From an uncultured Candidatus Saccharibacteria bacterium (GTDB taxonomy: Bacteria; Patescibacteriota; Minisyncoccia; UBA6257; UBA11618), in assembly GCA_964362125.1 (NCBI GenBank), contig CAYICS010000002.1, positions 9,302 to 73,301 of the forward strand: a stretch of 64,000 nt of DNA, in the 5' to 3' direction. Positions 19,363 through 36,050 of the stretch are shown here, piece after piece; position 1 is the first letter of the stretch; every line of letters begins with the position of its first letter. The position numbers and the translations under genes were made by a program. Under the pieces are notes generated by a model. The model ran no database searches. It worked only from the letters and a program-made list of their open reading frames with translations, and was not told the DNA's origin.

Positions 19363-19392
19363 TCTTTTTTGTTCGAACTTTGGCAACTTGGA

Positions 19393-19631
19393 TAACCAGC
19401 CACCTCCATATTCCTCTCGCAACCATTCCGTTACAGATAAATTCCTCCTCACCCTAAGTCAGAAATTATCAGAAAAACAGAACTCGCCGTTAACATCAAG
19501 GAATATAAGGGTTCCCCAGCAGAGCTGGGGCTCAAACAGCTGTTTTTCTTAGATTTCTTTGACTTAGGGTTCGGGAATTTATCGACTTCCACTACACAGG
19601 TTGCTGTGAAGAATATGGAGGTGGCTCATTC
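19393..19631. repeat. MITE-like palindromic repeat, copy B, inverted relative to copy A
   Basis: Terminal inverted repeats are AGCCACCTCCATATTC and GAATATGGAGGTGGCT. The central hairpin ccccagc-aga-gctgggg lies at 19514-19530. Its reverse complement aligns with 14712-14946. Confidence 0.6.
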
Positions 19632-19784
19632 TCAGGGCTTGATTAAAGGCCGGCGCCGCGATCTGGTTCCGGGAGAGTTGCAGCGGAACTTTGAGTACTG
19701 CGAGAAAGGAGATTAGATTAGCGCTAAGGATGTTCTGAATTACCTCAACTGGCGGGATGAAGCCGCCAAGAAAGGAGCGGGGCC

Positions 19785-20306
19785 GTGACCGAAACATTGC
19801 CGACATTAACGGACCAAGAAAAGGAGATGCTGGCCGGATTACTGCGGCGGCTCAAGCCGCCCTATGGACCAAAGGTGTTCCCAGCGTGGGTGGAGAATTT
19901 CGTCACCACGCCAGTGGAGATGGCGGTTTTCAACAGTGATCGCCAGATACTCCTGGTTTATAGAGAAGACCCGGAGTACAAGGGCTGGCATAGTCCGGGA
20001 ACGATTCTTCGCGATGAGGAAGATGTGCCAACTGCTCTTGAGCGGCTCATCAATGGTGAGCTGGGTGGGGCAAAAGTAACCAGGCCTGTCCCCTTGGGTT
20101 GGGTGGAAGTTCACAGGGGCAATGGTCTGGGGCAAAACCCAACCCGTCACGAGATCTCTTTACTCCATGCCTGCTTCGTACAAAATCTCTCTTTATCAGG
20201 CAAAGACAGATTATTCTCTATCGATCAACTGCCTGAAAACACCCTCACTCATCACAAAGAGGTAATCATCCCGGAGATCGTGAGACGTCTCTGGGGGCCC
20301 GGATAG
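19785..20306 (+). CDS. Divergent NUDIX-like hydrolase-domain protein from a higher-GC gene
   Basis: A Nudix-box-like stretch reads GTILRDEEDVPTALERLINGELG. The gene is noticeably GC-richer than its neighbours. Confidence 0.4.
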   Translation: MTETLPTLTDQEKEMLAGLLRRLKPPYGPKVFPAWVENFVTTPVEMAVFNSDRQILLVYREDPEYKGWHSPGTILRDEEDVPTALERLINGELGGAKVTRPVPLGWVEVHRGNGLGQNPTRHEISLLHACFVQNLSLSGKDRLFSIDQLPENTLTHHKEVIIPEIVRRLWGPG

Positions 20307-20352
20307 CCGGGCCTTTTTTGTCCCCTAACTTCACGGTCGTGAAGTAGGGGAC
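20297..20352 (+). terminator. Two tandem hairpins with a T-run
   Basis: The first hairpin is gcccgg-atag-ccgggc followed by cttttttg, and the stop codon sits in its loop. The second, at 20320-20352, is gtcccctaacttcacg-gt-cgtgaagtaggggac. Confidence 0.55.
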
Positions 20353-20444
20353 ATTTGACCATTTGTCAATTATATATTATATTATGTATCTAGTCGTACC
20401 TTGGCAAATCTATGGGTCTAAAATACAATAGAAAGGATTTGAAC

Positions 20445-21128
20445 ATGACTGGTTTTAGGGAAAATCAAGAGAATCTTTTTGAGCTGATTCATCGAGTTCT
20501 CGGTGATCATTTGCCGAGCGAGCCCCTGGAAGCGGTTTATCTCTTTGATTTGAGTTCGCCCAACAAGAGTTCAATACTTGAAAGAGCTATTAAACTCTAT
20601 CAGCAGGGCCGTGTTCGAAAGCTGGTTTTGAATAACGAAGGCGATCTCGACGGCTCAATCTCCTATCAGCAGTGTGCTGAAGAGTTGATTGCTAGGGGTG
20701 TCTCAAAAAGCGATCTTCTGGCTTTCAAACCAGCTCCGGAGTTTCGCGGTCCGACAGGGCGTTACAACGCCTCATCTCAAGGCGAGGGTTTTGTTCGGTT
20801 TATCAAGGAAAGCGGTTACCGATCAGTGGGGTGCATCGCCCCGACCTTTCATCTGGTCCGTGCCTTTGTGGCAGTGGTCAGCGGCCTTGCCCATAACAAT
20901 CTCCAAAATACAGTCCGGGCTTATGCCATACCCGGAGAATCACAGTCGTGGGATGAGGAGATTGTTCATTTTCAAGGCGCCATTAAAGGGCCTCGGAAAA
21001 ATCTGCTTAAGGATGAGCTGGCGAGGCTTGCTAGTTACAGCGCCAGAGGAGATCAGGTTTCTGGGGAAGTAGTTCTCAATTATCTCAATCAACGGGAAGG
21101 AGGAAATCGTGCCGACGTTCTGCGATGA
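20445..21128 (+). CDS. DUF218/YdcF-like domain protein, paralogue 1. The ORF track starts it at 20412; the RBS favours the ATG at 20445.
   Basis: An aaagga RBS precedes the ATG at 20445. The protein has a Rossmann-like pattern: VYLFD, KLVLNNEG, and CIAPTFHLVRA, which matches the DUF218 HMxRA motif. Confidence 0.45.
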   Translation: MTGFRENQENLFELIHRVLGDHLPSEPLEAVYLFDLSSPNKSSILERAIKLYQQGRVRKLVLNNEGDLDGSISYQQCAEELIARGVSKSDLLAFKPAPEFRGPTGRYNASSQGEGFVRFIKESGYRSVGCIAPTFHLVRAFVAVVSGLAHNNLQNTVRAYAIPGESQSWDEEIVHFQGAIKGPRKNLLKDELARLASYSARGDQVSGEVVLNYLNQREGGNRADVLR

Positions 21129-21774
21129 CCAGTCAGTTCTCTTTCAGTTGACGCATCGGATTCTCTGTGATTCATTGCCGCCGAGACAGTTGGAAGTTGT
21201 CTATCTTTTCGACGAAACAGCCGAAAGCGCTTCGTCAGTGATAGATCAGGCCTTCTCGCTTTATAAACTGAACGGAGTTAGGAGAATAGCGCTGAATAAC
21301 GAAGGCCATCCTGCCGGATCAATTTCTTACGACAAACGCTGTGAGGAATTGATTACTGGGGGTGTTGTTCCTCAAGATCTGGTGGCCTTCAAGCCCGCCC
21401 CTGAATTTCGCGATCCGAAAACAGGATGTTACAGCACCAACTCTGAAGCCGATGGCTTCGTCCGTTTTATCAAGGAGCAGGGTTATACCTTGATTGGAGG
21501 GATCAGGCAGCCCCTGTTTCAGATTCGTGGCTTTGTCTCTTTAGTCAGCGCTCTCTTCCGCCATGGATTGCAAGAAATGGTTCGTGCCTACAATATTCCC
21601 GGCAGGCGGTTATCTTGGATAGGGAAGGCACTTCACTCTCAAGGTAATGTGGAGGAAGAGCGTTGGCAGCTGCTCGAACGCGAGCGGGATAACATCTTCA
21701 AGTACTGCGAATGGGGGCATCTGGTGACTGCTCCCGAAGTCCTTCAGTATTTGAAATGGCGAGACGGTTTGTAA
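21109..21774 (+). CDS. DUF218/YdcF-like domain protein, paralogue 2, a tandem duplicate
   Basis: It aligns with the upstream gene at roughly 45-50% identity, for example VYLFD, ALNNEG, AFKPAPEFR and DGFVRFIKEQGY. Confidence 0.45.
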   Translation: MPTFCDDQSVLFQLTHRILCDSLPPRQLEVVYLFDETAESASSVIDQAFSLYKLNGVRRIALNNEGHPAGSISYDKRCEELITGGVVPQDLVAFKPAPEFRDPKTGCYSTNSEADGFVRFIKEQGYTLIGGIRQPLFQIRGFVSLVSALFRHGLQEMVRAYNIPGRRLSWIGKALHSQGNVEEERWQLLERERDNIFKYCEWGHLVTAPEVLQYLKWRDGL

Positions 21775-21802
21775 GTTCTTGAGTATCTTTGGTGGTACTC
21801 TT

Positions 21803-21838
21803 GGCTGGTCTGGAGCAGCTCCAGACCAGCCTTTTTTT
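21803..21838 (+). terminator. Rho-independent terminator
   Basis: ggctggtctggag and ctccagaccagcc form a GC-rich stem, followed by ttttttt. Confidence 0.7.
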
Positions 21839-21858
21839 ATTCAAAAACTTATGCTAGA

Positions 21859-22665
21859 TTGGGTGGTGTGAAAAGTGACGTCATCAAAAAATGGGAAATT
21901 CCGGTGGTGATTTTCTGCGGCGGCAAAGGGACGCGGCTGAAAGAAGAAACTGATTTTAAACCCAAGCCGATGGTCACTATCGGCGGCTTGCCCATCCTCT
22001 GGCACATTATGAAAATTTATTCGGCGCGGGGTTTTAATAATTTTATTCTTTGTCTTGGTTATCGCGGCGACACTATCAGAGATTTTTTCTTAAATCACCA
22101 TTTTCATAATCAGGATTGTCTGCTTGATTCCCAAAATAAAAAAATTGAGCATTTAGGGTCAGGGCCAGAGAACTGGAAAATAATTTTTGCCGAGACCGGC
22201 GCCGAGGCCTTAACCGGCGAAAGATTATTCCGGATAACTAAATATCTTAGCGGCGACCGGTTTATGGTCACTTATGGCGACGGCGTCACTGATATGAATA
22301 TCAGCGATCTGCTTGATTATCATTTATCGCAAAAAACCATCGGCACCATTACCGGCGTCCACCCTTATTCCAAGTGGGGGCTGGCGGAAATCGACGGCGC
22401 TAGCCGCATCAAACGTTTCCGGCAGAAACCCTTGCTTGATGAGTATGTCAACGGCGGCTTCATGGTTTTTGAGCGGCCCTTTATTAAATATCTTGAGGAA
22501 GGCATCAGTATCGAGGAGGCCTTCAGCAAGCTGATTAGGAAGAAACAACTTTCTTTGTATAAATACAACGGCTTCTGGCATGCGATGGATACTTATCAGG
22601 ATCACGAAGAGCTTAATCGTCTTTGGCAGAAGAAAAAACCATGGCAAGTCTGGAAAGAATCTTAG
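21859..22665 (+). CDS. rfbF: Glucose-1-phosphate cytidylyltransferase
   Basis: VVIFCGGKGTRLKEETDFKPKPMVTIGGLPILWHIMKIYS aligns with the Salmonella RfbF/DdhA N-terminus. The gene uses a TTG or GTG start. Confidence 0.85.
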   Translation: MGGVKSDVIKKWEIPVVIFCGGKGTRLKEETDFKPKPMVTIGGLPILWHIMKIYSARGFNNFILCLGYRGDTIRDFFLNHHFHNQDCLLDSQNKKIEHLGSGPENWKIIFAETGAEALTGERLFRITKYLSGDRFMVTYGDGVTDMNISDLLDYHLSQKTIGTITGVHPYSKWGLAEIDGASRIKRFRQKPLLDEYVNGGFMVFERPFIKYLEEGISIEEAFSKLIRKKQLSLYKYNGFWHAMDTYQDHEELNRLWQKKKPWQVWKES

Positions 22666-23591
22666 TCACCGGCGCCACCGGCTTTATCGGCAGTCATCTG
22701 GTTGAGGCCTTATTAAAAGACGGCCGGAAGATTGCCATTGTCAAGCGGCCGGATTCTAATCTTTGGCGCATCGCCTCATTTCAGAGCCGCCTGAAAATTT
22801 ATAACAATGATGATGCTTCTTTGAGGCGACTGTTTAAAAAGATTAAGCCGCAATTAGTGATTCATCTGGCCGCTTATTATGTGAAAGAGCATCGGTCAAT
22901 AACTGACGCGGAGGAATTAATTAGAAGCAATGTTCTTTTTCCGGTAAAAATTTTGGAGTTGATGCGTCAGCACCAAGTTAGATATTTTATTAATACCGGC
23001 ACCTGTTTTGAATATGATTTGAGCCGGAAAGAAAAAATAAAAGAGACGTCGCCGCTGGCTCCCCAAAATTTATACGCCGCCACCAAGCTGGCTTTCCAAA
23101 AAATCCTCCGCTATTATGCCGGCGCCTATCAAATGAAAGCAGTTAACTTCCGGCTTTTTCCGCCTTATGGGCCCAAAGATAACGAAAAATTGGTTAACCA
23201 TCTTTTAAATAATTTAACCACCGGCCAGAGGATTTTTCAAAGTCCATCACAACAGCAATGGAATTTTACTTATGTAAAAGACATTGTTACCGCTTATAGA
23301 AAGGCCGTTGTTTATCTTCTCAAGATGAAAAGCGATTACGAAGATTTTAATATCGGTATTGACAAAACTTATTCGGTGAAGCAAATTATTGATGTTTTAG
23401 AACGATTAACCGGGGCGCGTAATCTGGTCAGTTATGACCGGCCTTACCCAGCCAAAGAGATCTTTTATCTTAATTGTAATAATAGTAAAGCTAAAAGGTT
23501 ATTGGGTTGGCGGCCGAAGTATAGTTTAGAGCGGGGTCTAAAAGAAACTTATGAATGGTACTGTCTTCGGCATCAAAGGGCAAAAAATTGA
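22623..23591 (+). CDS. NAD(P)-dependent epimerase/dehydratase-family reductase, probably a CDP-4-keto-3,6-dideoxyhexose reductase (paratose/abequose-synthase-like)
   Basis: Carries VTGATGFIGSHL and the YAATK catalytic pair (YxxxK). It is 322 aa and sits between rfbF and the rfbG-rfbH fusion. Confidence 0.55.
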   Translation: MAEEKTMASLERILVTGATGFIGSHLVEALLKDGRKIAIVKRPDSNLWRIASFQSRLKIYNNDDASLRRLFKKIKPQLVIHLAAYYVKEHRSITDAEELIRSNVLFPVKILELMRQHQVRYFINTGTCFEYDLSRKEKIKETSPLAPQNLYAATKLAFQKILRYYAGAYQMKAVNFRLFPPYGPKDNEKLVNHLLNNLTTGQRIFQSPSQQQWNFTYVKDIVTAYRKAVVYLLKMKSDYEDFNIGIDKTYSVKQIIDVLERLTGARNLVSYDRPYPAKEIFYLNCNNSKAKRLLGWRPKYSLERGLKETYEWYCLRHQRAKN

Positions 23592-24033
23592 CGGAGTAGA
23601 AATCAAGAAACTGAATATCATTCCTGATGAACGGGGAGCGATTTATCATATGCTCCGCCGCGATGATCCCCTTTTTGAACAATTCGGCGAAATTTATTTT
23701 TCCAAGGTTTATCCCGGAGTAATTAAGGGTTGGCATATCCATAAAGAGATGACTTTAAATTACGCCGTCATTTCAGGAATGATTAAGCTGGTTTTGTTTG
23801 ATGATCGGGAAGGCAGTGCCACCCGGGGCAATCTGATGGAGATATTTATGGGCGAAGATAATTATCTTTTGGTGAAAATCCCTAAGCTGATTTGGAACGG
23901 CTTTAAGGGTATTGGCAGTAAGCCAGCTATTGTTGCCAATTGTGCCACTCTACCGCACATTAAAGAAGAAATCGGGCGCCTTGATCCTTTTCACAATCAT
24001 ATTCCTTATAAATGGGATTTAATCAATGAATAA
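23551..24033 (+). CDS. RmlC-like cupin sugar epimerase or ketoisomerase
   Basis: 160 aa with a GWHIHK motif typical of dTDP-4-dehydrorhamnose-3,5-epimerase-like and FdtA-like cupins. Confidence 0.55.
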   Translation: MNGTVFGIKGQKIDGVEIKKLNIIPDERGAIYHMLRRDDPLFEQFGEIYFSKVYPGVIKGWHIHKEMTLNYAVISGMIKLVLFDDREGSATRGNLMEIFMGEDNYLLVKIPKLIWNGFKGIGSKPAIVANCATLPHIKEEIGRLDPFHNHIPYKWDLINE

Positions 24034-26269
24034 TCTTAAAGATTTTTATAAGGGCAAAAAAGTGCTGGTGACTGGTCAGAGCGGTTTTAACGGCGCCTGG
24101 CTGGCTTATGTTCTCTGGCGCTGGGGAGCGCAGGTGACGGCCGTTTCTTTAGCGCCCAAAACCCAACCCAATCTTTTTGATATTTTTGGTTTAAGAGAGA
24201 AAATTACCAACTACTTTATTGATCTCCGCGATTTTCAGCATTTAAAAAATATTATCGCCAATCTTCAACCAGAACTGGTTTTTCATTTAGCCGCCCAAGC
24301 CATTGTTTTAAAAAGCTATGATGAGCCGATGGAAACTTATATCAGCAATACTCTAGGCACAGTCAATATCTTGGAAGCAATCCGGACCGCCGGCTGTGTT
24401 CGCTCGGGAATCATTGTCACCACTGATAAAGTTTATGAAAATAAAGAAGATTCTCACGCTTTCCAGGAACCGGATAAGTTAGGCGGCGACGATCCTTACA
24501 GCGCCAGCAAAGCCGCCGCCGACATTATTGCTAATTCTTATATTCGTTCTTTCCATCTGCCTCTGGCTGTTTGCCGCTCCGGCAATATTTTAGGCGGCGG
24601 CGATTGGGCAGAGTATAGGTTATTGCCGGATATTTTCAGAGCTATTTACAGCGGTAGTAATCCGGTGATTATCCGTAACCCGGAGGCGGTTCGTCCCTGG
24701 CAGTATATTCTAGAGCCGGTCTCCGGATATTTATTTTTAGCTAAAAAAATTTTTGAGGGAGAAAGTAATCTGGCCGGCGCCTGGAATTTCGGGCCGGATC
24801 AGGAAAATTCTGCGGCGGTTGAGCCAGTGGTTCAAAAAACTATTAAGTTGATCGGCACCGGGCAGTATCAAGTGGTGCCAACCGATGATAAACCCGAGAA
24901 GAAATTATTAAGATTGGATAACACCAAGGCCAAAACAGTTTTGGGCTGGAAGCCCCGCTTAAATCTGGATGATACTTTAAAATGGACAGTTGATTGGTAC
25001 CGGCAATATTATACTAATCCTTCAGGTATTATCAGTTTAACTGACGAGCAGATTGATAAATTTTTCGGTGAGAGCGCCAGCCGGCGGGTAACTTACGCTC
25101 TGGCGGTTCATGGTGATGAAGAATTGGCGGCTGTGATTGACGTTCTTAGTCGCCATAAAACCATTATGGGAGAAAAAGTTAAGCTGTTGGAAAATAAAGT
25201 AGCCGGCCTTTTTGCCAAAAAACATGGGATTGCTGTTAATTCCGGTTCCTCAGCCAATTTTTTGGCCTTAGAGATTATTGATTTACCGCCGGGCAGTGAA
25301 GTTATTACCCCCATTATGACTTTTGCCACAACCGTGGCGCCCCTAGTTCAAAAAGGATTGCGGCCGGTTTTTACCGATGTTATTGAAGGTAATTATCAGA
25401 TTGATGTTAATCAGGTAGAGTCACTCATCAGCGATAAAACCCGGGCGCTGATGATCCCTTCTCTTTTAGGCAATATCCCGGATTACCGCCAACTGCGGGA
25501 AATTGCCCGACGTTATAATCTTTTTTTGATTGAAGATTCTTGTGACACTTTGGGAGCAAAATTAGACGGCGCCGCCACTGGTCTTTACTCTGATATTTCC
25601 ACTACCAGTTTCTATGGTTCTCATATTATTACTGCCGCTGGCGGGGGCGGAATGATTTGTGTCAATAATGACGACTGGGCAAGGCAGTGCCGGGTGTTGC
25701 GGGGTTGGGGCCGGTCTTCGGCGGCTGATGAGAGCGAAAGTATTGAAGCGCGCTTTCAGCAAGAACTTGATAATGAGCCCTATGATGCTAAATTTATTTT
25801 TGAACGCCTTGGCTATAATTTCTTGCCCAGTGAAATAGGCGCGGCTTTTGGTTTAGCCCAGTTGGAGAAGTTAGATAGTTTTATCGCCATCCGGCGCCGC
25901 AATTTCCAAGAGCTAAAATTATTTTTCTTAAATTATCAGGATTTATTTATTCTGCCGGAACAAAATTCCCGGGCCGAAACCGCCTGGCTGGCTTTTCCTT
26001 TAACTATTAAAGAAGGGGCGCCTTTCCGACGCAAAGATTTACAGATTTATCTCGAGAGGCGGGGCATCCAGACCAGAACTAATTTTGCCGGCAATCTCTT
26101 GCGTCACCCCGGCTTTAAAGGCATACCCTGCCGCACCCGGGCCGAAGGTTATCCAGCGGCAGATAATATTTTCCGCAATTCTTTTCTGATTGGCTGTCAC
26201 CACGGTCTGACCAGTGAGGACTTGGCTTATCTTAAGCAAAGTTTTACTGATTTCTTTAAATCCATATGA
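24026..26269 (+). CDS. Single-ORF fusion of CDP-glucose 4,6-dehydratase (RfbG/DdhB-like, N-terminal) and PMP-dependent CDP-4-keto-6-deoxyglucose 3-dehydrase (RfbH/DdhC/E1-like, C-terminal)
   Basis: Residues 1 to about 350 read KKVLVTGQSGFNGAWL, YSASK and RPWQYILEP, which are collinear with RfbG. Residues from about 355 to 747 are DegT/DnrJ/EryC1-family (GSSANFLAL, DSCDTLG, TTSFYGSHIITAAGGGGM). The frame is continuous throughout. Confidence 0.8.
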   Translation: MNNLKDFYKGKKVLVTGQSGFNGAWLAYVLWRWGAQVTAVSLAPKTQPNLFDIFGLREKITNYFIDLRDFQHLKNIIANLQPELVFHLAAQAIVLKSYDEPMETYISNTLGTVNILEAIRTAGCVRSGIIVTTDKVYENKEDSHAFQEPDKLGGDDPYSASKAAADIIANSYIRSFHLPLAVCRSGNILGGGDWAEYRLLPDIFRAIYSGSNPVIIRNPEAVRPWQYILEPVSGYLFLAKKIFEGESNLAGAWNFGPDQENSAAVEPVVQKTIKLIGTGQYQVVPTDDKPEKKLLRLDNTKAKTVLGWKPRLNLDDTLKWTVDWYRQYYTNPSGIISLTDEQIDKFFGESASRRVTYALAVHGDEELAAVIDVLSRHKTIMGEKVKLLENKVAGLFAKKHGIAVNSGSSANFLALEIIDLPPGSEVITPIMTFATTVAPLVQKGLRPVFTDVIEGNYQIDVNQVESLISDKTRALMIPSLLGNIPDYRQLREIARRYNLFLIEDSCDTLGAKLDGAATGLYSDISTTSFYGSHIITAAGGGGMICVNNDDWARQCRVLRGWGRSSAADESESIEARFQQELDNEPYDAKFIFERLGYNFLPSEIGAAFGLAQLEKLDSFIAIRRRNFQELKLFFLNYQDLFILPEQNSRAETAWLAFPLTIKEGAPFRRKDLQIYLERRGIQTRTNFAGNLLRHPGFKGIPCRTRAEGYPAADNIFRNSFLIGCHHGLTSEDLAYLKQSFTDFFKSI

Positions 26270-27345
26270 GAGTTTGTTATTTTGGGAAGTTTGATCCCAA
26301 TTACGCCCGCAACCGGGTTTTTATCCGAGGTTTAAAGAAAAACGGCGTTGAGGTGATTGAATGCAACTCGGATCGCCGCGGTTTATTCTCAGTTACCTGG
26401 GATTTAATAAAAAAACATCGTCAATTAAAAGACCAATATGATGTGATGGTTGTTGGTTTTTTGGGCCATACCCCAGCCATCTTAGCCAGCTTTATTACAA
26501 AAAAACCAATTGCTTTTAATGCCTTAATTTCTCTTTATGACAGCACTGTTTTTGATCGCAAGAACGTTTCACCGAGAAGCTGGCGGGCTCTATATTACTG
26601 GTTATTAGACAAACTTTCCTGTCAATTGGTAGATTTGGTTATTTTAGATACAGCCGCTCATATTGATTATTTTGTTAGAACTTTCCGCTTGCCAATTGAT
26701 AAATTCCAACGGGTTTTCGTCGGCTCTGATGAAGAAATTTTTTCCCCTCTGCCGGCGCCGCCGACTGGTAATAAATTTCTGGTGAATTTTCACGGCACTT
26801 TCATTCCTCTCCATGGCGCTGAATATATTGTTGAGGCCGCCAACCTTCTAAAAAAAGAAAACATTCATTTTAATTTGATCGGCCGCGGTCAGACTTATCA
26901 AGAAATCCATCAGTTAATTGTCAACCGTCAATTGTCAAATGTCAGTCTTATTGACTATCTGGGCTATCTCGACTCCCCGCCTTTTCAAAAACTAAAAAAA
27001 TATCTGGCTGAGGCCGATATTTGCCTGGGAATTTTTGGCAATACCCAGAAAGCCCGCAATGTCATTCCTAATAAAGTTTTTGAGATTTTGGCAATGAGGA
27101 AACCTTTATTAACCGGCGATTCTCCGGCTAGCCGGGAAATTCTTACTGACCGGACCAATGTTTTATTTTGTAAAATGGCCGACCCGGCTGATTTGGCTGA
27201 GAAAATCTTAGAGCTAAAAAATAATCAAGGACTGCGGGAGAAAATTGCCGCTAATGGTTATCACCTCTTTCAATCTCAACTCCGTTCTGATATTATAGGA
27301 AAACAGTTAAAAGAGATTCTCAATGAACTCTGCTCTAAAAATTAA
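26266..27345 (+). CDS. GT-B fold glycosyltransferase (GT1/GT4-like)
   Basis: 359 aa with a C-terminal Rossmann half (NKVFEILAMRKPLLTGDSPASREIL). Confidence 0.5.
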   Translation: MRVCYFGKFDPNYARNRVFIRGLKKNGVEVIECNSDRRGLFSVTWDLIKKHRQLKDQYDVMVVGFLGHTPAILASFITKKPIAFNALISLYDSTVFDRKNVSPRSWRALYYWLLDKLSCQLVDLVILDTAAHIDYFVRTFRLPIDKFQRVFVGSDEEIFSPLPAPPTGNKFLVNFHGTFIPLHGAEYIVEAANLLKKENIHFNLIGRGQTYQEIHQLIVNRQLSNVSLIDYLGYLDSPPFQKLKKYLAEADICLGIFGNTQKARNVIPNKVFEILAMRKPLLTGDSPASREILTDRTNVLFCKMADPADLAEKILELKNNQGLREKIAANGYHLFQSQLRSDIIGKQLKEILNELCSKN

Positions 27346-28786
27346 AACAATTTTTATCGCCGCCTTTCATACCCTAGCTTCAAGAAATATTTTGGCGACT
27401 GATGTTTTAAAAAGTTTAAGCGCTGACCCGGAACTGCGGCTGGTGATTTTTGTGCCGCTTTTTAAGACAGATTTTCTGAAAGAACAATACGGCCGGGATA
27501 ATATTATTTTTGTCGGATTCAATGAAAGACAATTAAATAATTATTTTTGGTTTGAAAACCTGACGTCACTGGCCTTCTCTTTTTTATCAACTTACACCGC
27601 TAAATTGCGTAGTCAGGAAAAATTAAGGAAAGAAAAGTCTTTGCGCGCCTTGGTAAAGTATGGCCGCAACCGGTTTGCCGGCGCTTTCCTTTCCCGCTTA
27701 ATGCCGGCCCGTTTTCTCTTGCGTTTTTTTGATCGGTTTTTTTCTCCGATTAAACTGCTTAATCAATATTTTGATCAATACCAGCCGCTGGCTGTTTTTG
27801 CCACTGATGTTTTTTTGGCGGCCGATGTCTTGTTTTTACAGGCAGCTAAAGCCCGAAGGATTCTCTCTATTGGCATGGTGCGTTCCTGGGACAACACTAC
27901 CACCAAAGGTTTAATGCGTTGCCTGCCGGACAAATTGATTGTCAATAATGAAATTATAAAGAAAGAAGCGGTGGAGTTACACGATTTTTCGGCTAAGAAC
28001 ATTTTTGTCAGCGGCTTACCGCAATTTGATATTGGTTTTCTGGGGAAAAGAACGCCGCGCCAGGAATTCTTCGGGAAAATCGGTCTTAATCCAAAAAAGA
28101 GAATGATTTTATTCGCCCCGGCGGGCCAGTTTCTTTCTGACACTGATTGGCAGATTTGCGAAATTTTAAAAAACGGCCTTGATCAAAAGAAAATTCCTTC
28201 TGATCTGCAATTTCTTGTCAGAAGCCACCCCATGGATCCGGCGCCTCTTTCCCAATTTCAGCCGGATGAACGGTTCGTTATTGAACGTCCCGGGACTTAT
28301 TTCAAAGTTGAGACAAGAAATTTGGGGGTGGTTTCAGGTCGACGGGTGGTGGCCGGCGATCCGGTTGACTTGGGTCAGCTGAACGCCAAATTAACGGAAA
28401 TGTCGCTTGATGATCTTAACCATCTTTTTGATTCTCTTTATCACTCGGAAATGCTGATTCAGGTTAACTCCACTATTGGTATTGATTCTTTAATTTTTGA
28501 TAAACCCGATATTATGATCGAATTCGACGGCTGGGAAAAGAAAAATTATCTAGACAGTGTTGAACGTTATCATCATGAGGATCATATGCAAAAATTTCTC
28601 AAAACTGGTGCGATTCGGATTGTTCGCAGTCAGGAAGAATTATTTGAGTGGATTAACAAATATCTGGAAGGGCCTGAACTAGATAGCGGAAAAAGAAAAA
28701 TCGGCGCCGGTCAACAGATTAAATTCCTTGATGGTCAATCAGGAAAAAGAGCGGCAGAATTTATTTTAAAAAGCATCAATGACTGA
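27323..28786 (+). CDS. TagB/TagF-like CDP-alcohol phosphotransferase family protein (Glyphos_transf-like)
   Basis: The C-terminal motif [25 protein letters not shown] resembles the TagF LITDYSSV...DKP block. Confidence 0.4.
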
Positions 28787-29789
28787 TAAAAAAATTGCTT
28801 TAGTGACTGGCATCACTGGTCAGGACGGCAGTTATCTGGCGGAATTGCTTTTAAGCAAAGGATATGAAGTGCACGGCATTATCCGGCGGGCCAGCACCTT
28901 TAATACCGGGCGGATTGACCATATTTATCAATCCATCCATCAAGAGGAGCGGCAGCTATTTTTGCACCACGGCGATCTGGCCGATGCCAACACGGTTCGG
29001 AAACTGATTCACCAGATAGAACCGGAGGAAATCTATAATCTGGGAGCGCAGAGCCATGTCCGGGTTAGTTTTGATATTCCGGAATATACAGCTAATATTA
29101 CCGGTATGGGAACTTTAAGGATTTTGGAAGCGATTAAGGATTATCAGCAAAACGGCGGGAAAAAGAAAATAAAATTTTATCAGGCCAGCTCCAGCGAAAT
29201 GTTTGGTGATTCTCCCCCGCCCCAAAATGAAAAAACGCCCTTCCGGCCCCGCAGTCCTTATGGCTGTGCCAAAGTTTTTGCTTACCACACCGCCGTTAAT
29301 TATCGCGAGGCCTATGGAATTTTTGCCTGCAACGGCATTTTATTTAATCATGAGTCGCCGCGGCGCGGTGAAACTTTCGTCACCAGAAAAATCACCCGCG
29401 GTTTGGCCCGGATTGTCATTGGTCAGATACAAAAAATCTATTTGGGGAATCTGGAAGCGCGGCGCGATTGGGGTTACGCGCCGGAGTATATGGAAGCGGC
29501 CCAGCTGATGCTCCAGCAGTTAGAGCCGGACGATTATGTGATCGGCACGGGTGAAAATCATTCAGTCAAAGAATTTGTTGAGGCGGTGTTTAAGCACGTG
29601 GGTATTAACAACTGGCAGGATTATGTGGAAATTGACCCCCGTTATTTCCGGCCGACAGAGGTGGAGAATCTGATTGCCGATGCTGGTAAAGCCAAAGAAA
29701 AATTGGATTGGCAGGCAAAGACAAAATTTGATGATTTGGTTAAAATAATGACAGAGTTTGATTTAAAAAATGTCCAAAGAAGTTTTTAA
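28779..29789 (+). CDS. gmd: GDP-mannose 4,6-dehydratase
   Basis: Carries [29 protein letters not shown] (YxxxK) and [18 protein letters not shown]. Confidence 0.9.
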
Positions 29790-30324
29790 ATTAATAATGA
29801 TTTATGGGCCGCCGGCCGTGGGTAAATTGACAGTGGCGCAGGAATTAGAAAAGGTTACTGGTTATAAATTGCTTCATAACCACCGTATTGCCGATGCCTA
29901 TGGCCCGATTTTTGGTTATGGCACAGATATTGGCCGAAGATTAAATGTAACTTTTCGCGGAGAGATTTATGAGGCAGCGGCTAAGAGCGGTTTGCCTGGA
30001 TTAATCTCCACATTTACTTATTATGGCGATCAGAAAAATGATGATTTTATGAAAGAACTGATAGAGAGACTTAAGCCTTATAATGGCGCCATTTATTTTG
30101 TGCGTCTTATCTGTTCTGAAGAAGAATTGAGGCGGCGGGTAATTGATGAATCGCGAAAGAAATCTTTTAAAATAACTAGTATCGAGAAGCTTCAAGAAAT
30201 TTTAACTACAACCAATGTTCAAGCAGTCATTCCTGAAGTTATTGCGCAAACATTGACTATTAATAACACTAATCTTTCGCCGCAAGAGACAGCAGTGATA
30301 ATTAAGGAATTTTATAAACTTTGA
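29770..30324 (+). CDS. P-loop NTPase/kinase-fold protein (AAA_33-like)
   Basis: A Walker A motif [11 protein letters not shown] sits at the N-terminus. The gene is 184 aa and overlaps the gmd stop. Confidence 0.5.
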
Positions 30325-30389
30325 CAAAATTAGACTGATTGTCTAGAATATCAATCAGGTTTTAGCACCTTGTTTTTTAGAGAAAGGAA

Positions 30390-31073: not shown

Positions 31074-31080
31074 CCAATTG

Positions 31081-32864
<1,784 letters not shown>

Positions 32865-33996: not shown

Positions 33997-34895
33997 CTTA
34001 TGGCGAGATGGGCTTGCCGGCCCTTAAAGGGCTTAAGAAAAAATTTGATGTTTTATGGATAGTAACTCCGCCAAAAGATGATGGCGCATCTTCTTTGTTG
34101 CCGGTTGAAATTTTCTCCCGCAAAAACGGCATAAAAATTTATCAAACCAACAATAATAAAGAAATTAATGATGTTGTTAAAAAAAGTAAACCAAAAGCGG
34201 TAATAATTGCCACTTACAATAAGACAATTCCAGCGGAGACCTTAAAACTTAGCAAGTTTATCAATATTCATCACGGCGATTTGCCGCGCTGGCGGGGCCG
34301 AGCTAATATCAACTGGGCAATAATACTCGGCAGGAAAGAAATAGGACTGGCCATTCATCAAGCCGTTGCTCAATTTGATGACGGGCCGGTTTATAAAATG
34401 CATCTCATTCCTATTACGGAAAAAGATACTGTGGCGACTGTTTATAATAAAGTTAATAAGATCCTTGAAAATCAGCTGGGTGGAACTGTTAAGAAAATTT
34501 TATCCGGAGAACTTAAGGGAGTAAAACAAATTGGTCAAGCCACTTATTGCTGTACCCGCTTGCCTCAAGACGGTTTAATTGATTGGCAAAAGACCAGTTT
34601 GGAAATTGATCGGCTGATCAGAGCTGTAACCAAGCCCTATCCCGGCGCCTTTACGTTTTTCGAAGGTAAAAGAATGATAGTCTGGACCGGAAAAATTCCT
34701 AAAAATCCCAGAATTTTCGAGGGCAGAATTCCCGGCCGGGTGGTGGGGCTTTATCCTGATGGCGTCGAAGTTTTAAGCGGCGACAGCTCAATAATTATCA
34801 AAAACATCAATTATGAAAATCAAGAAAAAAACGCCCGCGATGTTATTAAGTCAGTTAAAAAAACATTAGACTTCCCGTGGCGGCACTGGGATTAA
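33957..34895 (+). CDS. Sugar N-formyltransferase (Fmt/ArnA-FT-like)
   Basis: Carries the NIHHGDLPRWRGRANINWAIILG formyl_trans_N signature, with a C-terminal Fmt-like domain. Confidence 0.65.
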   Translation: MSVNQKMDSIGLLAYGEMGLPALKGLKKKFDVLWIVTPPKDDGASSLLPVEIFSRKNGIKIYQTNNNKEINDVVKKSKPKAVIIATYNKTIPAETLKLSKFINIHHGDLPRWRGRANINWAIILGRKEIGLAIHQAVAQFDDGPVYKMHLIPITEKDTVATVYNKVNKILENQLGGTVKKILSGELKGVKQIGQATYCCTRLPQDGLIDWQKTSLEIDRLIRAVTKPYPGAFTFFEGKRMIVWTGKIPKNPRIFEGRIPGRVVGLYPDGVEVLSGDSSIIIKNINYENQEKNARDVIKSVKKTLDFPWRHWD

Positions 34896-36050
34896 ATAAC
34901 GATATTTATTGCCGGTTTTTTCTTTGATACTATCGAGATACTCGTGGGCAAATACCACCAGCACAGCCGGCGCTGAATTTTCCAAAAAACTTTTGGAGAC
35001 AATGGGGATATGCGTTCCCGGGCTGAATTTATTTTGTTTCAAATGGCTGTCATCAACAATAAACTCGATCAAATCCGAGTCAATATTGCCGTAATTACAA
35101 ATAGTAGCCACCCGCGCCGGCGCCCCGTAGCCGGCAACTTTGATCTTATCTTTTTTATATTCAAGAAGTTTGTTTCTAAAGGCGGCAATCTGGGTCTTCA
35201 CTTGTTCTTTAAATTTTTTAAATCGCGTCGGATTTAGATTTGTTTTTTCTTCCTCGAGCAGCTGCTGAACCGGCGCCGCTGTTATTTGGTTTTGACCGAG
35301 ACGGGCCGTTACCCGCAGTGATCCGCCATGGGGCTCTATAATTTCCGCCTCGGCGATATGCATACCGTGCCTTGCTAAAAGCGACTGAAGCGATGTCAGA
35401 GAATAGTAAAATATTCTATCCAAATAAAATCGCTCAAATTGGACATCTTTTAGAATATTACCGATATATTCCACTTCAATAATGAATCGGCCGTCATCGG
35501 TCATTAGATTTTTTACAGCTCCGATGAATTGATGGGGGTCCTCAAGGTGAGTAAAGACACTGCTGGCAATAATCAGATCTGATTTTTGATATCGTGCCTT
35601 AATCATTTCTGCGGTTTCGGTATTGAAAAAAGCGGTAATCGTTTCTAAGCCGGCATCATTGGCAATTTTAGAGACATTAATCGAAGGATCAACGCCGATA
35701 GCCCTAATTCCCAGTTCTTTAAGCGGTTTCAGCAATACGCCGTCGTTAGAGCCGATATCAACCACAAAATTGGCGCCCCGAACAGCAATTTCCTTGCCAA
35801 ATTGCTCAAAATGGCGCAGTAATCCCGGATTGACCGAGGATAAATAGTAATAGTCCTCAAACATTATCTCCCGTGAGATCAAAGTTCCCAACTGGACGTT
35901 GCGGCAGTTATTGCAGAAAAAAACAGTTAGTGGAAAAAATTTCTCTGTTTTAAAGTCCGCCTCTCCCCGCGGATATTTATTAGCAAGTGGCTGGTTGCCA
36001 AGATTAAGAAATTCAATTAAGTTTTTTTTACGGCAGAGAAAACAAACCAT
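34866..36050 (-). CDS. Sugar C-methyltransferase (TylC3/NovU-type: Zn-binding N-terminus, class I MTase, C-terminal MTase_14 domain)
   Basis: N-terminal cysteine pairs CFLC and CNNCRN form the Zn site. Motif I reads VVDIGSNDG, and a C-methyltransferase-like tail follows. Confidence 0.6.
   Translation of the reverse strand: MVCFLCRKKNLIEFLNLGNQPLANKYPRGEADFKTEKFFPLTVFFCNNCRNVQLGTLISREIMFEDYYYLSSVNPGLLRHFEQFGKEIAVRGANFVVDIGSNDGVLLKPLKELGIRAIGVDPSINVSKIANDAGLETITAFFNTETAEMIKARYQKSDLIIASSVFTHLEDPHQFIGAVKNLMTDDGRFIIEVEYIGNILKDVQFERFYLDRIFYYSLTSLQSLLARHGMHIAEAEIIEPHGGSLRVTARLGQNQITAAPVQQLLEEEKTNLNPTRFKKFKEQVKTQIAAFRNKLLEYKKDKIKVAGYGAPARVATICNYGNIDSDLIEFIVDDSHLKQNKFSPGTHIPIVSKSFLENSAPAVLVVFAHEYLDSIKEKTGNKYRYLIPVPPREV

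What the first reader, a model, noticed from the sequence alone, without database searches (positions are those of the whole stretch)
24026..26269. Single-ORF fusion of CDP-glucose 4,6-dehydratase (RfbG-like) and PMP-dependent 3-dehydrase E1 (RfbH-like)
These two 3,6-dideoxyhexose-pathway enzymes are normally separate genes (rfbG/ddhB and rfbH/ddhC). Here one continuous 747-aa frame carries both an SDR-type dehydratase half and a DegT-family half. With rfbF, an SDR reductase and an RmlC-like cupin just upstream, the cluster looks like a CDP-3,6-dideoxyhexose pathway (ascarylose, paratose or abequose type). No E3 reductase (DdhD-like ferredoxin-NADP reductase) is visible in the window.
Basis: partly seen in the sequence, partly recalled or inferred. 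Interest (0 to 1): 0.6.

Follow-up and report, generated by a model that had tools for sequence, protein, structure and literature searches.

The report
Fused sugar dehydratase lacking iron-sulfur site
One gene in an uncultured groundwater bacterium joins two consecutive enzymes of a rare-sugar (3,6-dideoxyhexose) pathway, and its second half belongs to a large unstudied enzyme branch that lacks the iron-sulfur site the textbook enzyme needs, which would explain why no partner reductase gene is present.

Summary
The 747-aa ORF at 24026-26269 (+) is real. It is an end-to-end fusion of a complete CDP-glucose 4,6-dehydratase (aa 1-352; TIGR02622 403 bits, cut-off 278) and a complete DegT-fold enzyme (aa 353-747). 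A second assembly has the same frame, and the C-half has no start codon of its own. Eight diverged database proteins share the RfbG::E1-type architecture.

The "E1/RfbH" label is only half right. The C-half keeps the His that replaces the Schiff-base Lys (E1 H220), so it is a dehydrase-type enzyme and not a transaminase. But it lacks three of the four E1 [2Fe-2S] cysteines (C251/C253/C261) and fails NCBI's RfbH equivalog cut-off (339 against 423 bits).

It belongs to a large Cys-less clade ("class B", about 170 clusters; rhizobia, SAR11, Legionellales, CPR). This clade sits in the RfbH position after rfbF-rfbG. An FNR-type reductase gene was next to it in 0 of 41 loci, against 9 of 45 loci for Fe-S-motif E1 genes.

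No E3-like gene occurs among the window's 56 ORFs. I infer an E3-independent, ColD-like 3-deoxygenation; this is untested. The host is a Parcubacteria (CPR) genome, and the operon lies in a glycan island of about 57 kb. This is a new variant of a known kind, of moderate interest.

The parts
21803..21831 (+). Strong terminator-like hairpin (13-bp stem, 9 G-C pairs, T-run) just upstream of rfbF. It marks the likely start of the CDP-sugar operon.
21904..22665 (+). rfbF/ddhA-like glucose-1-phosphate cytidylyltransferase. The longest ORF starts at TTG 21859; the gene called on L001 starts at 21904.
   Evidence: TIGR02623 259.6 bits (cut-off 300.25) and PF00483. Gene call on L001.
22623..23591 (+). 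Extended-SDR (GalE/RmlB-like), the candidate C-4 ketoreductase of the pathway.
   Evidence: PF01370 165 bits. No equivalog match. Best PDB matches are UDP-glucose 4-epimerases at 109 bits or less.
23551..24033 (+). Small RmlC-like cupin (sugar epimerase or isomerase). It overlaps the fusion's start codon by 8 nt.
   Evidence: PF00908 32 bits. PDB 3ejk 'dTDP sugar isomerase' 128 bits.
24026..25081 (+). N-half of the fusion (aa 1-352): a complete CDP-glucose 4,6-dehydratase. Motifs: GQSGFNG (aa 17-23), TTDKVY (132-137), YSASK (158-162).
   Evidence: TIGR02622 403 bits, above the 278 cut-off. 1rkx 297 bits. Foldseek TMt 0.92-0.93, rmsd 1.3-2.1. Motifs.
25082..26269 (+). C-half of the fusion (aa 353-747): a complete Cys-less E1-like ('class B') PMP/PLP sugar 3-dehydratase. 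Its first residue, R353, replaces the start Met of stand-alone homologues.
25622..25624 (+). Codon of His533, which aligns with E1 His220 (the residue that replaces the aminotransferase Schiff-base Lys).
   Evidence: Alignment to 3bcx (wild type, H) and 3bb8 (H220K). His is 100% conserved in 172 class-B and 53 class-A sequences.
25706..25756 (+). Loop WGRSSAADESESIEARF (aa 561-577). It is the counterpart of the E1 [2Fe-2S] loop WGRDCYCAPGCDNTCKKRF and contains no cysteine.
26266..27345 (+). GT4 glycosyltransferase whose start overlaps the fusion's stop by 4 nt (ATGA). It is the likely transferase for the product sugar.
34866..36050 (-). TylC3-type sugar C-methyltransferase (PF08421/PF08484). 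The same family neighbours or is fused to class-B genes elsewhere, so it may be linked to this pathway; that link is uncertain.

Best explanation
The ORF encodes a genuine bifunctional enzyme that carries out two consecutive steps of a CDP-deoxyhexose pathway.

The N-half (aa 1-352) is an NAD-dependent CDP-D-glucose 4,6-dehydratase and makes CDP-4-keto-6-deoxy-D-glucose.

The C-half (aa 353-747) is a vitamin-B6 sugar 3-dehydratase of the E1 lineage. It keeps the catalytic His (H533 = E1 H220) but has no [2Fe-2S] site.

I infer that the C-half removes the 3-OH without an E3 reductase, by ColD-type chemistry:
- The PMP-ketimine forms.
- The His abstracts a proton and the 3-OH is eliminated.
- The enamine is released and hydrolysed to CDP-4-keto-3,6-dideoxyglucose plus ammonia.
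- PMP is regenerated from an amino-acid donor such as L-glutamate.

The upstream cupin (epimerase/isomerase) and SDR (4-ketoreductase) would then finish a CDP-3,6-dideoxyhexose, possibly of the L-series (ascarylose-like). The translationally coupled GT4 would transfer it to a surface glycan of a Parcubacteria (CPR) cell.

The fusion arose by loss of the stop/start between adjacent or overlapping rfbG and class-B genes. It would hand the labile 4-keto intermediate directly to the second active site.

Shown here: the architecture, intact motifs, absence of the Cys ligands, family separation, gene context, and absence of E3.

Inferred: 3-dehydratase activity, CDP specificity of the C-half, the ColD-like amino-donor mechanism, channelling, and the final sugar.
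For: Fusion is real:
- The ORF and both domains are confirmed.
- A second assembly has an identical frame.
- The junction is the complete RfbG C-terminus followed directly by the class-B N-terminus (RRVTYALAV against stand-alone MRVNYGQAV). The C-half has no start codon of its own.
- In Aureimonas the unfused rfbG and class-B genes overlap by 10 nt.
- P0001 (49% identity, class B) and seven class-A proteins have the same RfbG::E1-type order, with RfbG halves scoring 273-418 bits.
- The AlphaFold2 model has mean pLDDT 95.6, with the junction at 83-85.

N-half:
- It passes the TIGR02622 equivalog cut-off.
- It scores 297 bits to Yersinia Eod 1rkx, with GxxGxxG, TxDK and YxxxK all kept.
- Foldseek gives TMt 0.93.

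C-half:
- The best solved relative is E1 3bcx (246 bits), against 162 bits for ColD.
- His is at the H220 position in 100% of 225 homologues.
- E1 C251, C253 and C261 are Cys in 100% of 53 class-A sequences and in 0% of 172 class-B sequences.
- On the RfbH model, class B scores 305-362 bits and class A 651-720 bits, with a cut-off of 423.
- Class-B genes sit after rfbF-rfbG in 22 of 32 loci with adequate flanks.
- The Sinorhizobium and Aureimonas isolates have rfbF-rfbG-B-(C-methyltransferase)-SDR and no reductase partner.
- An FNR-type reductase (PF00970 + PF00175) lies next to 9 of 45 class-A loci and 0 of 41 class-B loci, Fisher p = 0.003.
- No Fer2/FNR gene is in the window.
- At 9 positions that sharply separate class A from class B, ColD has the class-B residue at 6, including the Ser before the catalytic His, and the class-A residue at 1.
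- The published mechanisms of ColD (no cluster, glutamate-regenerated PMP) and of E1/SpnQ (cluster plus reductase) are summarised in PMC8987622.
Against: - No biochemical data exist for any class-B member. I found none in the searchable literature.
- By sequence the C-half is closer to the cluster-dependent E1 (34% identity) than to ColD (27%).
- E3 adjacency is not universal even for class A (9 of 45 loci). The class-A fusion locus L006 also lacks a reductase within 10 kb. Absence of a neighbour is therefore weak evidence on its own.
- Only 64 kb of the genome (contig about 84 kb) was visible, so a reductase elsewhere cannot be excluded.
- Class B has its own partly conserved C545 (80%), C724 (91%), H725 (93%) and H726 (74%). 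A non-canonical metal site is unlikely but not excluded.
- L001 differs from the window almost only at its contig end. It is the same population and not a fully independent sequencing of the junction.
- The ColD-sharing count rests on only 9 columns.
Confidence: 0.55

Rival explanations
1. Canonical E1/E3 pathway. The C-half is an RfbH/DdhC-type PMP and [2Fe-2S] dehydrase, and its E3 (DdhD/AscD) reductase is encoded elsewhere in the genome.
For: The best solved relative is Yersinia E1. The best NCBIfam hit is RfbH. JGI names many homologues 'CDP-6-deoxy-D-xylo-4-hexulose-3-dehydrase'. Only part of the genome is visible.
Against: Three of the four cluster cysteines are absent in the query and in all 172 class-B sequences. 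The score is below the RfbH equivalog cut-off, with a clean bimodal gap to true E1s. None of 41 class-B loci has an FNR-type neighbour.
Confidence: 0.08
2. Cluster-less but still reductive. The C-half forms the PMP-glucoseen intermediate, which is then reduced by a housekeeping flavodoxin, ferredoxin or flavin reductase, or by a non-canonical metal site (C545/C724/H725/H726), rather than being hydrolysed as in ColD.
For: SpnQ uses general cellular reductase pairs rather than a dedicated E3 (PMC8987622). Class-B-specific Cys/His residues are partly conserved. Many class-A loci also lack an adjacent reductase.
Against: SpnQ still needs its own [2Fe-2S] cluster. None of the class-B Cys/His columns is invariant, and they do not form a known cluster motif. 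CPR genomes are generally poor in redox partners (my own knowledge).
Confidence: 0.17
3. The C-half does other B6 chemistry on the 4-keto sugar. For example, it could carry out a slow or stoichiometric C-4 transamination giving a CDP-4-amino-4,6-dideoxyhexose, or a step that prepares C-3 for the C-methyltransferase often found nearby.
For: SpnQ shows aminotransferase activity without a reductase, and E1 H220K transaminates. C-methyltransferases neighbour or are fused to class-B genes (P0081).
Against: The Schiff-base Lys is replaced by His in 100% of members, which is the hallmark of the three characterised 3-dehydratases. The conserved module rfbF-rfbG-B-SDR mirrors the abequose/paratose pathways minus E3. 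C-methyltransferase association is seen in only about 7 of 41 loci.
Confidence: 0.12
4. Artefact. A sequencing or assembly indel near 25.06-25.09 kb joined two separate genes.
For: A T5 run lies at 25061-25065. Read coverage of the ENA contig is low (cov_6 in its name). The two assemblies come from the same population.
Against: The C-half has no start codon, because the start Met position is Arg (CGG). Homology is continuous up to and from the junction with no lost residues. The same architecture occurs in eight diverged clusters. Two assemblies agree.
Confidence: 0.05

Closest known systems
E1 = CDP-6-deoxy-L-threo-D-glycero-4-hexulose 3-dehydrase (AscC/DdhC/RfbH), Yersinia pseudotuberculosis, PDB 3bcx
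   Same: It is the closest solved sequence relative (246 bits, 34% identity). It has the same DegT/AAT fold. It has His at the H220 position in place of the Schiff-base Lys. It occupies the same pathway position, directly after rfbF and rfbG in CDP-glucose clusters.
   Different: The query has no Cys at the C251/C253/C261 [2Fe-2S] ligand positions. It lacks the roughly 30-aa N-terminal extension and an 8-residue insertion. It has a single His instead of HH. It fails the NF011936 cut-off. It has no E3/FNR partner gene. Here it is fused to the preceding enzyme.
ColD = GDP-4-keto-6-deoxy-D-mannose 3-dehydratase (colitose pathway), E. coli, PDB 2gms
   Same: Catalytic His instead of Lys, preceded by Ser. 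No iron-sulfur cluster and no reductase partner. ColD shares the class-B residue at 6 of 9 positions that separate class A from class B. The structural fit is similar or better than for E1 (TMt 0.88, rmsd 3.2-3.5, against 0.86 and 6.4 for E1).
   Different: Only 27% identity (162 bits). ColD works in a GDP-mannose context, not a CDP-glucose context. Use of an amino donor is proven for ColD and only inferred here.
CDP-D-glucose 4,6-dehydratase (Eod/RfbG/DdhB/AscB), PDB 1rkx and 1wvg
   Same: The N-half is a full-length member. It passes TIGR02622, is 41% identical, has TMt 0.93, and keeps all catalytic motifs.
   Different: It is normally a stand-alone protein of about 357 aa. Here its C-terminus runs with no linker into the next pathway enzyme.
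RfbG::RfbH fusions with the Fe-S motif (database proteins P0002, P0003, P0004, P0010, P0015, P0016, P0050)
   Same: Same domain order. The RfbG half scores 273-418 bits. The context is similar: rfbF upstream, SDR and cupin adjacent (L006).
   Different: Their C-halves are true RfbH equivalogs (667-720 bits) with WGRDCxC...C motifs. They have longer linkers because the E1 N-terminal extension is present. They are only 36-41% identical to the query.
SpnQ (TDP-4-keto-2,6-dideoxyglucose 3-dehydrase, spinosyn pathway)
   Same: A B6-dependent 3-dehydratase with His in place of Lys and no dedicated E3 gene.
   Different: SpnQ has a [2Fe-2S] cluster and needs general ferredoxin or flavodoxin reductase pairs. 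It uses a dTDP substrate. It was not compared by sequence here.

Membership tests
CDP-glucose 4,6-dehydratase (TIGR02622; RfbG/DdhB/AscB) | Score above the curated equivalog cut-off over the full model | tested here: met
   403.4 bits against a cut-off of 278.45; profile positions 1-351 of 352
CDP-glucose 4,6-dehydratase (TIGR02622; RfbG/DdhB/AscB) | NAD-binding GxxGxxG, the catalytic Thr/Tyr/Lys (YxxxK), and the Asp-Lys dehydration pair (TxDK; Yersinia Eod D135/K136, residue numbers from my own knowledge) | tested here: met
   GQSGFNG at aa 17, TTDKVY at aa 132 and YSASK at aa 158, aligned to tsdkcy and ysnsk of 1rkx
CDP-glucose 4,6-dehydratase (TIGR02622; RfbG/DdhB/AscB) | Fold of the solved enzymes | tested here: met
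   Foldseek 1rkx/1wvg TMt 0.92-0.93, rmsd 1.3-2.1 A; model pLDDT 91-98
CDP-glucose 4,6-dehydratase (TIGR02622; RfbG/DdhB/AscB) | Converts CDP-glucose to CDP-4-keto-6-deoxyglucose | not testable with these tools
   Needs an enzyme assay. The rfbF-like gene upstream is consistent with this activity.
E1 3-dehydrase (RfbH/DdhC/AscC; NF011936) | Score above the curated equivalog cut-off | tested here: not met
   339.4 bits against a cut-off of 423. Five other class-B proteins score 305-362 bits and five Fe-S-motif homologues score 651-720 bits.
E1 3-dehydrase (RfbH/DdhC/AscC; NF011936) | His replaces the Schiff-base Lys (E1 H220) | tested here: met
   H533 aligns with H220 of 3bcx and with K220 of the 3bb8 mutant. 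It is invariant in 225 sequences.
E1 3-dehydrase (RfbH/DdhC/AscC; NF011936) | [2Fe-2S] ligands C193, C251, C253 and C261. The motif is C-X57-C-X1-C-X7-C (Agnihotri et al. 2004, cited). The residue numbers are from my own knowledge and are reproduced by the numbering of the alignment. | tested here: not met
   Only the C193 equivalent (C506) is present. C251, C253 and C261 align to S565, A567 and I573 (or to a gap). These columns are Cys in 0% of class B and 100% of class A.
E1 3-dehydrase (RfbH/DdhC/AscC; NF011936) | Dedicated E3 reductase (DdhD/AscD) in the cluster, as in ddhDABC of Yersinia and Salmonella (PMC5399914) | tested here: not met
   No Fer2/FNR gene among the 56 window ORFs. No FNR-type neighbour in 41 class-B loci. 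The rest of the genome was not visible.
ColD-type 3-dehydratase | His in place of Lys, with no Fe-S motif | tested here: met
   the ColD properties are from PMC8987622
ColD-type 3-dehydratase | PMP regenerated by transamination from L-glutamate, with ammonia released | not testable with these tools
   Needs an enzyme assay. The only indirect support is 6 of 9 discriminating residues shared with ColD.
ColD-type 3-dehydratase | GDP-4-keto-6-deoxymannose substrate and a GDP-mannose pathway context | tested here: not met
   It is fused to a CDP-glucose dehydratase and sits downstream of a cytidylyltransferase. It is only 27% identical to ColD.
DegT/DnrJ/EryC1/StrS sugar aminotransferases (PF01041) | Pfam domain match | tested here: met
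   252.7 bits, aa 363-736
DegT/DnrJ/EryC1/StrS sugar aminotransferases (PF01041) | Catalytic Schiff-base Lys | tested here: not met
   The motif is SFYGSH, with His at that position. By contrast, the separate DegT gene at 32881-33996 scores 399 bits as a conventional member.

The most novel reading that the evidence does not exclude
The Cys-less 'class B' clade may be a fourth, uncharacterised mechanistic type of nucleotide-sugar 3-dehydratase. It includes this fusion and at least 170 sequence clusters from rhizobia, SAR11, Legionellales, Bacteroidota and CPR bacteria. Under this reading it is of the E1 lineage and works on CDP-sugars, but it is independent of an iron-sulfur cluster and of E3. 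It would then be the long-discussed evolutionary intermediate between ColD-like and E1-like C-3 deoxygenation. In this CPR genome it is additionally welded to the 4,6-dehydratase, giving a two-step, oxygen-tolerant, reductase-free route to CDP-4-keto-3,6-dideoxyglucose.
Probability: 0.45. Interest if true: 0.6.

Novelty: new variant of a known kind. Interest (0 to 1): 0.42.

Why it matters
C-3 deoxygenation of CDP-sugars is the textbook example of a PMP/[2Fe-2S] radical enzyme pair (E1/E3). That pair is notoriously hard to reconstitute: quotes a failed attempt attributed to dysfunctional clusters.

If class-B enzymes do the same net reaction with only a B6 cofactor and an amino donor, three things follow:
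- 3,6-dideoxyhexose pathways in many genomes are mis-annotated or missed. NCBI names these proteins generic aminotransferases.
- The fused RfbG::class-B protein would be a compact, oxygen-insensitive biocatalyst for making CDP-4-keto-3,6-dideoxyglucose, the precursor of abequose, paratose, tyvelose and ascarylose. This would be useful for glycoconjugate-vaccine and glyco-engineering work.
- It would give an experimental handle on how the cluster-dependent E1 evolved from aminotransferase- or ColD-like ancestors.

It also shows that genome-reduced CPR bacteria invest in elaborate surface-glycan chemistry. The fusion itself is an ordinary kind of event, a join of consecutive pathway genes.

Tried and rejected
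- A strict regex for an AscD-like E3 (plant-type Fer2 motif plus RxYS plus GxGxxP in one ORF) found nothing in any of 87 loci, including class A. Relaxing it revealed shorter FNR-only reductases next to class-A genes. I then searched for these with an HMM and confirmed them by Pfam.
- I tried to read the primary E1, ColD and SpnQ papers (PMC2782820, PMC2515278, PMC2515268, PMC2242600). None is held. The ligand numbers therefore rest on my own knowledge, on the paper title cited, and on the numbering of the alignment.
- Literature searches for a cluster-less CDP-pathway E1, for a bifunctional RfbG-RfbH, or for dideoxyhexoses in Patescibacteria returned nothing relevant.
- The 1.84-billion-representative search did not return the query's own cluster. 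That cluster is represented by a 135-aa fragment, so counts of fusions from that search are lower bounds.
- I first read nine hits as 'reverse-order RfbG fusions'. Their SDR part scores only 48-67 bits against RfbG and is a generic SDR, probably a downstream reductase or epimerase.
- A neighbour-joining tree rooted on ColD made class A monophyletic but not class B. The causes are one regex false positive (P0250) and a few intermediate Cys-less sequences. I therefore do not claim monophyly of class B.
- I considered L001 as independent confirmation of the frame. I downgraded it because 7 of its 8 differences are contig-end noise.
- There are no tRNAs in the window.
- A sigma-70-like match at 24983-25012 inside the gene was ignored. 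Such matches are twice as frequent as in shuffled sequence across the whole region, and no start codon follows it.


Full report
**1. Observation**

The ORF listing reports one ORF at 24026..26269 (+), 747 aa, with an ATG start (translation).

Pfam places an extended-SDR dehydratase domain at aa 14-319 and a DegT_DnrJ_EryC1 domain at aa 363-736. NCBIfam gives TIGR02622 'CDP-glucose 4,6-dehydratase' at aa 7-346 (403.4 bits; equivalog cut-off 278.45). It gives NF011936 'RfbH' at aa 349-745 (339.4 bits; cut-off 423).

- An rfbF-like cytidylyltransferase (TIGR02623, 260 bits).
- An SDR at 22623-23591.
- A small RmlC-like cupin at 23551-24033, whose best PDB match is 3ejk 'dTDP sugar isomerase' at 128 bits.
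- GT4 glycosyltransferases downstream.

A strong terminator-like hairpin at 21803-21831 precedes rfbF. The cupin and fusion genes overlap by 8 nt, and the fusion and GT4 genes overlap by 4 nt. Together this describes one operon: rfbF-SDR-cupin-fusion-GT4 and onward.

**2. Is the fusion real?**

The junction was aligned to the unfused gene pairs of Aureimonas sp. SA4125 and Sinorhizobium terangae. The query carries the whole RfbG C-terminus (…EQIDKFFGESAS, aa 352). This is followed immediately by the whole N-terminus of the second enzyme (RRVTYALAVHGDEELAAV). Stand-alone homologues begin MRVNYGQAV…, so the start Met has become Arg (CGG) and there is essentially no linker.

Between about codon 330 and Met380 there is no in-frame ATG, GTG or TTG. 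The two other frames run into stops within about 10 codons. Splitting the ORF by a hypothetical indel would therefore leave the second enzyme without a start codon.

In Aureimonas the two genes overlap by 10 nt, so a small deletion is enough to fuse them.

An ENA contig from Hainich groundwater (0.1 µm fraction), L001, matches window 18866-31391 at 99.94% with no gaps and encodes the identical protein. Seven of its eight differences lie in its first 93 nt. It is a second assembly of the same population and therefore only weak independent evidence.

Stronger support comes from database homologues with the same order and a genuine RfbG half (273-418 bits): P0001 (778 aa, 49% identity) and P0002, P0003, P0004, P0010, P0015, P0016 and P0050 (36-41% identity).

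AlphaFold2 models the whole chain at mean pLDDT 95.6. The junction (residues 341-360) is at 83-85, and pTM is 0.73. Foldseek finds no solved structure that covers both halves: TM-score normalised to the query is at most 0.49.

**3. The N-half**

It passes the equivalog cut-off. It aligns over its full length with Yersinia and Salmonella CDP-glucose 4,6-dehydratases (297 and 288 bits). It keeps GQSGFNG, TTDKVY and YSASK. It superposes on 1rkx with TMt 0.93 and rmsd 1.3 Å. I file it as a member of that family.

**4. The C-half is not a canonical E1**

The best solved relative is Yersinia E1 (3bcx, 246 bits), ahead of ColD (162 bits) and the true aminotransferases.

The alignment to wild-type E1 and to the deposited H220K mutant shows that the query's H533 is the counterpart of H220. 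This is the His that replaces the Schiff-base Lys in all characterised sugar 3-dehydratases (review PMC8987622).

In the same alignment the E1 loop WGRD-C251-Y-C253-APGCDNT-C261-KKRF faces WGRSS--AADESESIEARF, which contains no cysteine. The alignment's own numbering reproduces the literature numbers C193, H220, C251, C253 and C261.

I classified the 120 best word-index hits, the best 150 exhaustive-search hits and 80 genome loci by this loop. Two classes emerged:
- Class A has WGRDCxC…C.
- Class B has WGR[STE]S…E..RF with no Cys.

Conservation across 53 class-A and 172 class-B sequences:

| Column | Class A | Class B |
|---|---|---|
| H220 (His) | 100% | 100% |
| C251, C253, C261 (Cys) | 100% | 0% |
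| C193 (Cys) | 100% | 50% |

NCBI's RfbH equivalog model separates the classes without overlap. Class A scores 651-720 bits. Class B scores 305-362 bits and the query 339 bits, against a cut-off of 423.

Class B also lacks the roughly 30-residue N-terminal extension and an 8-residue insertion of class A. The HMM hit 'profile 31-437/440' is therefore a property of the class and not a truncation caused by the fusion.

**5. What class B does: context evidence**

Class B is widespread. It occurs in Sinorhizobium/Ensifer, Ruegeria, Aliiroseovarius, about ten SAR11 single-cell or MAG genomes, Legionella/Tatlockia/Coxiellaceae, Bacteroidota, Saccharibacteria, Parcubacteria and Levyibacteriota.

In 22 of 32 class-B loci with adequate flanks, rfbF lies about 1.9 kb upstream and rfbG about 1.1 kb upstream. 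This is exactly the RfbH position. The Sinorhizobium and Aureimonas isolates have rfbF-rfbG-B-(C-methyltransferase)-SDR-GT2-GtrA. That is the abequose/paratose-type module minus E3.

In Yersinia and Salmonella the E3 gene ddhD is part of the conserved ddhDABC block (PMC5399914).

I seeded an HMM with four FNR-motif ORFs lying immediately downstream of environmental class-A genes. Pfam confirmed these as FAD_binding_6 + NAD_binding_1. The HMM found such reductases in 9 of 45 class-A loci and in 0 of 41 class-B loci (Fisher p = 0.003).

None of the window's 56 ORFs of at least 150 aa is a ferredoxin or an FNR-type protein.

At the nine alignment columns that most sharply separate class A from class B, the cluster-free ColD carries the class-B residue at six, including the Ser that precedes the catalytic His. 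It carries the class-A residue at one.

Structurally, the modelled C-half fits ColD (TMt 0.88, rmsd 3.2-3.5 Å) at least as well as E1 (TMt 0.86, rmsd 6.4 Å).

**6. Mechanism proposed**

Shown here:
- A bifunctional polypeptide with two intact active-site motif sets.
- The second half is dehydrase-type (His) and lacks the Fe-S ligands.
- No reductase partner is encoded nearby, either here or in any class-B locus examined.

Inferred:
- The N-half converts CDP-glucose to CDP-4-keto-6-deoxyglucose.
- The C-half forms the PMP ketimine, H533 abstracts the C4' proton and the 3-OH leaves.
- Because no electron-transfer cluster exists, the Δ3,4-enamine is released and hydrolysed as in ColD (PMC8987622). 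This gives CDP-4-keto-3,6-dideoxyglucose plus NH4+, and PMP is restored by an amino donor.
- The cupin and the SDR would then epimerise or isomerise and reduce C-4. An AscE/AscF-like pair would give an L-series 3,6-dideoxyhexose. The coupled GT4 would transfer the sugar.

I put about 0.9 on the fusion and the N-half assignment. I put about 0.85 on 'no canonical Fe-S site', about 0.75 on '3-dehydratase' and about 0.5 on the ColD-like amino-donor cycle.

**7. Rivals**

- Canonical E1 with E3 elsewhere. This is contradicted by the missing ligands and the equivalog score.
- Cluster-less but still reduced by housekeeping redox proteins or by a non-canonical metal site. Class B has partly conserved C545, C724, H725 and H726. 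None is invariant.
- Other B6 chemistry, such as transamination or preparation for C-methylation. TylC3-type C-methyltransferases neighbour class-B genes in about 7 loci, are fused to one in P0081, and occur in this window at 34866-36050 (−).
- An assembly artefact.

Even class-A loci often lack an adjacent reductase, including the class-A fusion locus L006. Absence of a neighbour is supportive evidence and not decisive.

**8. Host and setting**

All named relatives of GatB (3564-5024, −) are Parcubacteria/Patescibacteria, at about 60% identity. This fits the 0.1 µm groundwater source.

Only the first 5 kb of the window is housekeeping: a DnaE fragment, a class II aminoacyl-tRNA synthetase and GatB. 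From about 7.3 kb to the end the window is one glycan island with many glycosyltransferases and methyltransferases. It also holds a GDP-mannose dehydratase route, an N-formyl amino-sugar route, a NeuB/CMP-sugar route, a radical SAM enzyme and a Wzx-like flippase.

CPR cells have no outer membrane (my own knowledge). The product is therefore more likely part of a surface, S-layer or pilus glycan than of an LPS O-antigen.

**9. Novelty and verdict**

Fusion of consecutive pathway genes is ordinary, and RfbG::E1-type fusions already exist in databases, unannotated. The specific RfbG::class-B combination was seen only here and in P0001.

The more interesting point is at the family level. A large E1-lineage clade occupies the RfbH slot but lacks the cluster and the reductase. 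It falls below NCBI's RfbH cut-off, and the named members seen here are labelled generic aminotransferases. It is absent from the 2022 review's list of characterised 3-dehydratases (E1, ColD, SpnQ) and from everything I could search.

I rate this a new variant of a known kind, with interest 0.42.

Noticed in passing
window 7353-63992: Apart from the first 5 kb (DnaE fragment, class II aminoacyl-tRNA synthetase, GatB), the window is one glycan-biosynthesis island of about 57 kb in a Parcubacteria (CPR) genome. It holds at least 12 glycosyltransferases, at least 9 methyltransferases, an AsnB-like amidotransferase (9453-11147) and a Wzx-like flippase (52911-54215, -). It also holds a GtrA domain fused to a GLF-like segment (62949-63992, -). 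This is a striking investment for a reduced genome.
   Followed up: partly
window 34866-36050 (-); L002 7153-8400; L003 11259-12482; P0081: A TylC3-type sugar C-methyltransferase (PF08421 + PF08484) lies 8.6 kb downstream in the window. The same family lies directly next to class-B genes in L002, L003, L012, L020, L023 and L039, and is fused to a class-B domain in P0081. This hints that some class-B pathways make branched (C-methyl) 3,6-dideoxyhexoses.
   Followed up: partly
window 28779-29789, 31127-32062, 32046-32864 (-): A GDP-mannose 4,6-dehydratase (PF16363, 463 bits), an SDR and a GT11-like (fucosyltransferase family) gene. Together they look like a second, GDP-6-deoxyhexose (fucose-like) route right after the CDP operon.
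   Followed up: no
window 32881-33996 and 33957-34895: A conventional DegT aminotransferase (PF01041, 399 bits) overlaps a formyltransferase gene. This suggests a third route, to an N-formylated amino-deoxysugar.
   Followed up: no
window 46718-48472 (-), within 46-50 kb: A 584-aa radical-SAM protein sits in a stretch with clearly higher G+C (52-53% against about 42% elsewhere). It is flanked by two short-chain dehydrogenases (45068-45892, 48618-49448) and NeuB (49483-50541). This may be a horizontally acquired cassette.
   Followed up: no
window 55278-56837: A 519-aa ORF combines a weak 2OG-Fe(II) oxygenase match (aa 124-214) with a class I methyltransferase domain (aa 291-442).
   Followed up: no
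L050 6732-7463; L055 5482-6183; L063 11213-11932; L086 8027-8725 (and L052, L062, L064, L066, L084): Environmental Fe-S-motif E1 genes are often followed immediately by a short (about 235-290 aa) FNR-type reductase (FAD_binding_6 + NAD_binding_1). This reductase lacks the N-terminal plant-type ferredoxin domain that I remember for Yersinia AscD/E3. It may be a minimal E3 variant.
   Followed up: partly
query aa 545 and 724-726 (window 25658-25660 and 26195-26203): Class B has its own partly conserved residues that class A lacks: C545 (80%) and the motif G-C724-H725-H726-G-L (91%, 93% and 74%). Their role is unknown.
   Followed up: partly
window about 19398-19560 (+) and 14781-14943 (-): A 166-nt inverted repeat at 86% identity lies between two intergenic or gene-end regions of the island. 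It was seen as a secondary BLAST hit of L001.
   Followed up: no
P0005, P0007-P0009, P0011-P0013, P0017, P0028; L005 10001-12406: A separate recurrent fusion joins class B at the N-terminus to a generic SDR at the C-terminus (48-67 bits to RfbG, so not RfbG). In L005 it is followed by an RmlC-like cupin. The 3-dehydratase can evidently be fused to the next enzyme in the pathway as well as to the previous one.
   Followed up: partly
window 20412-21128, 21109-21774, 30390-31073, 5978-7360 (-), 58130-59917 (-), 60495-62132 (-): Six sizeable ORFs in the island (221-595 aa) have no Pfam match at E <= 0.01.
   Followed up: no
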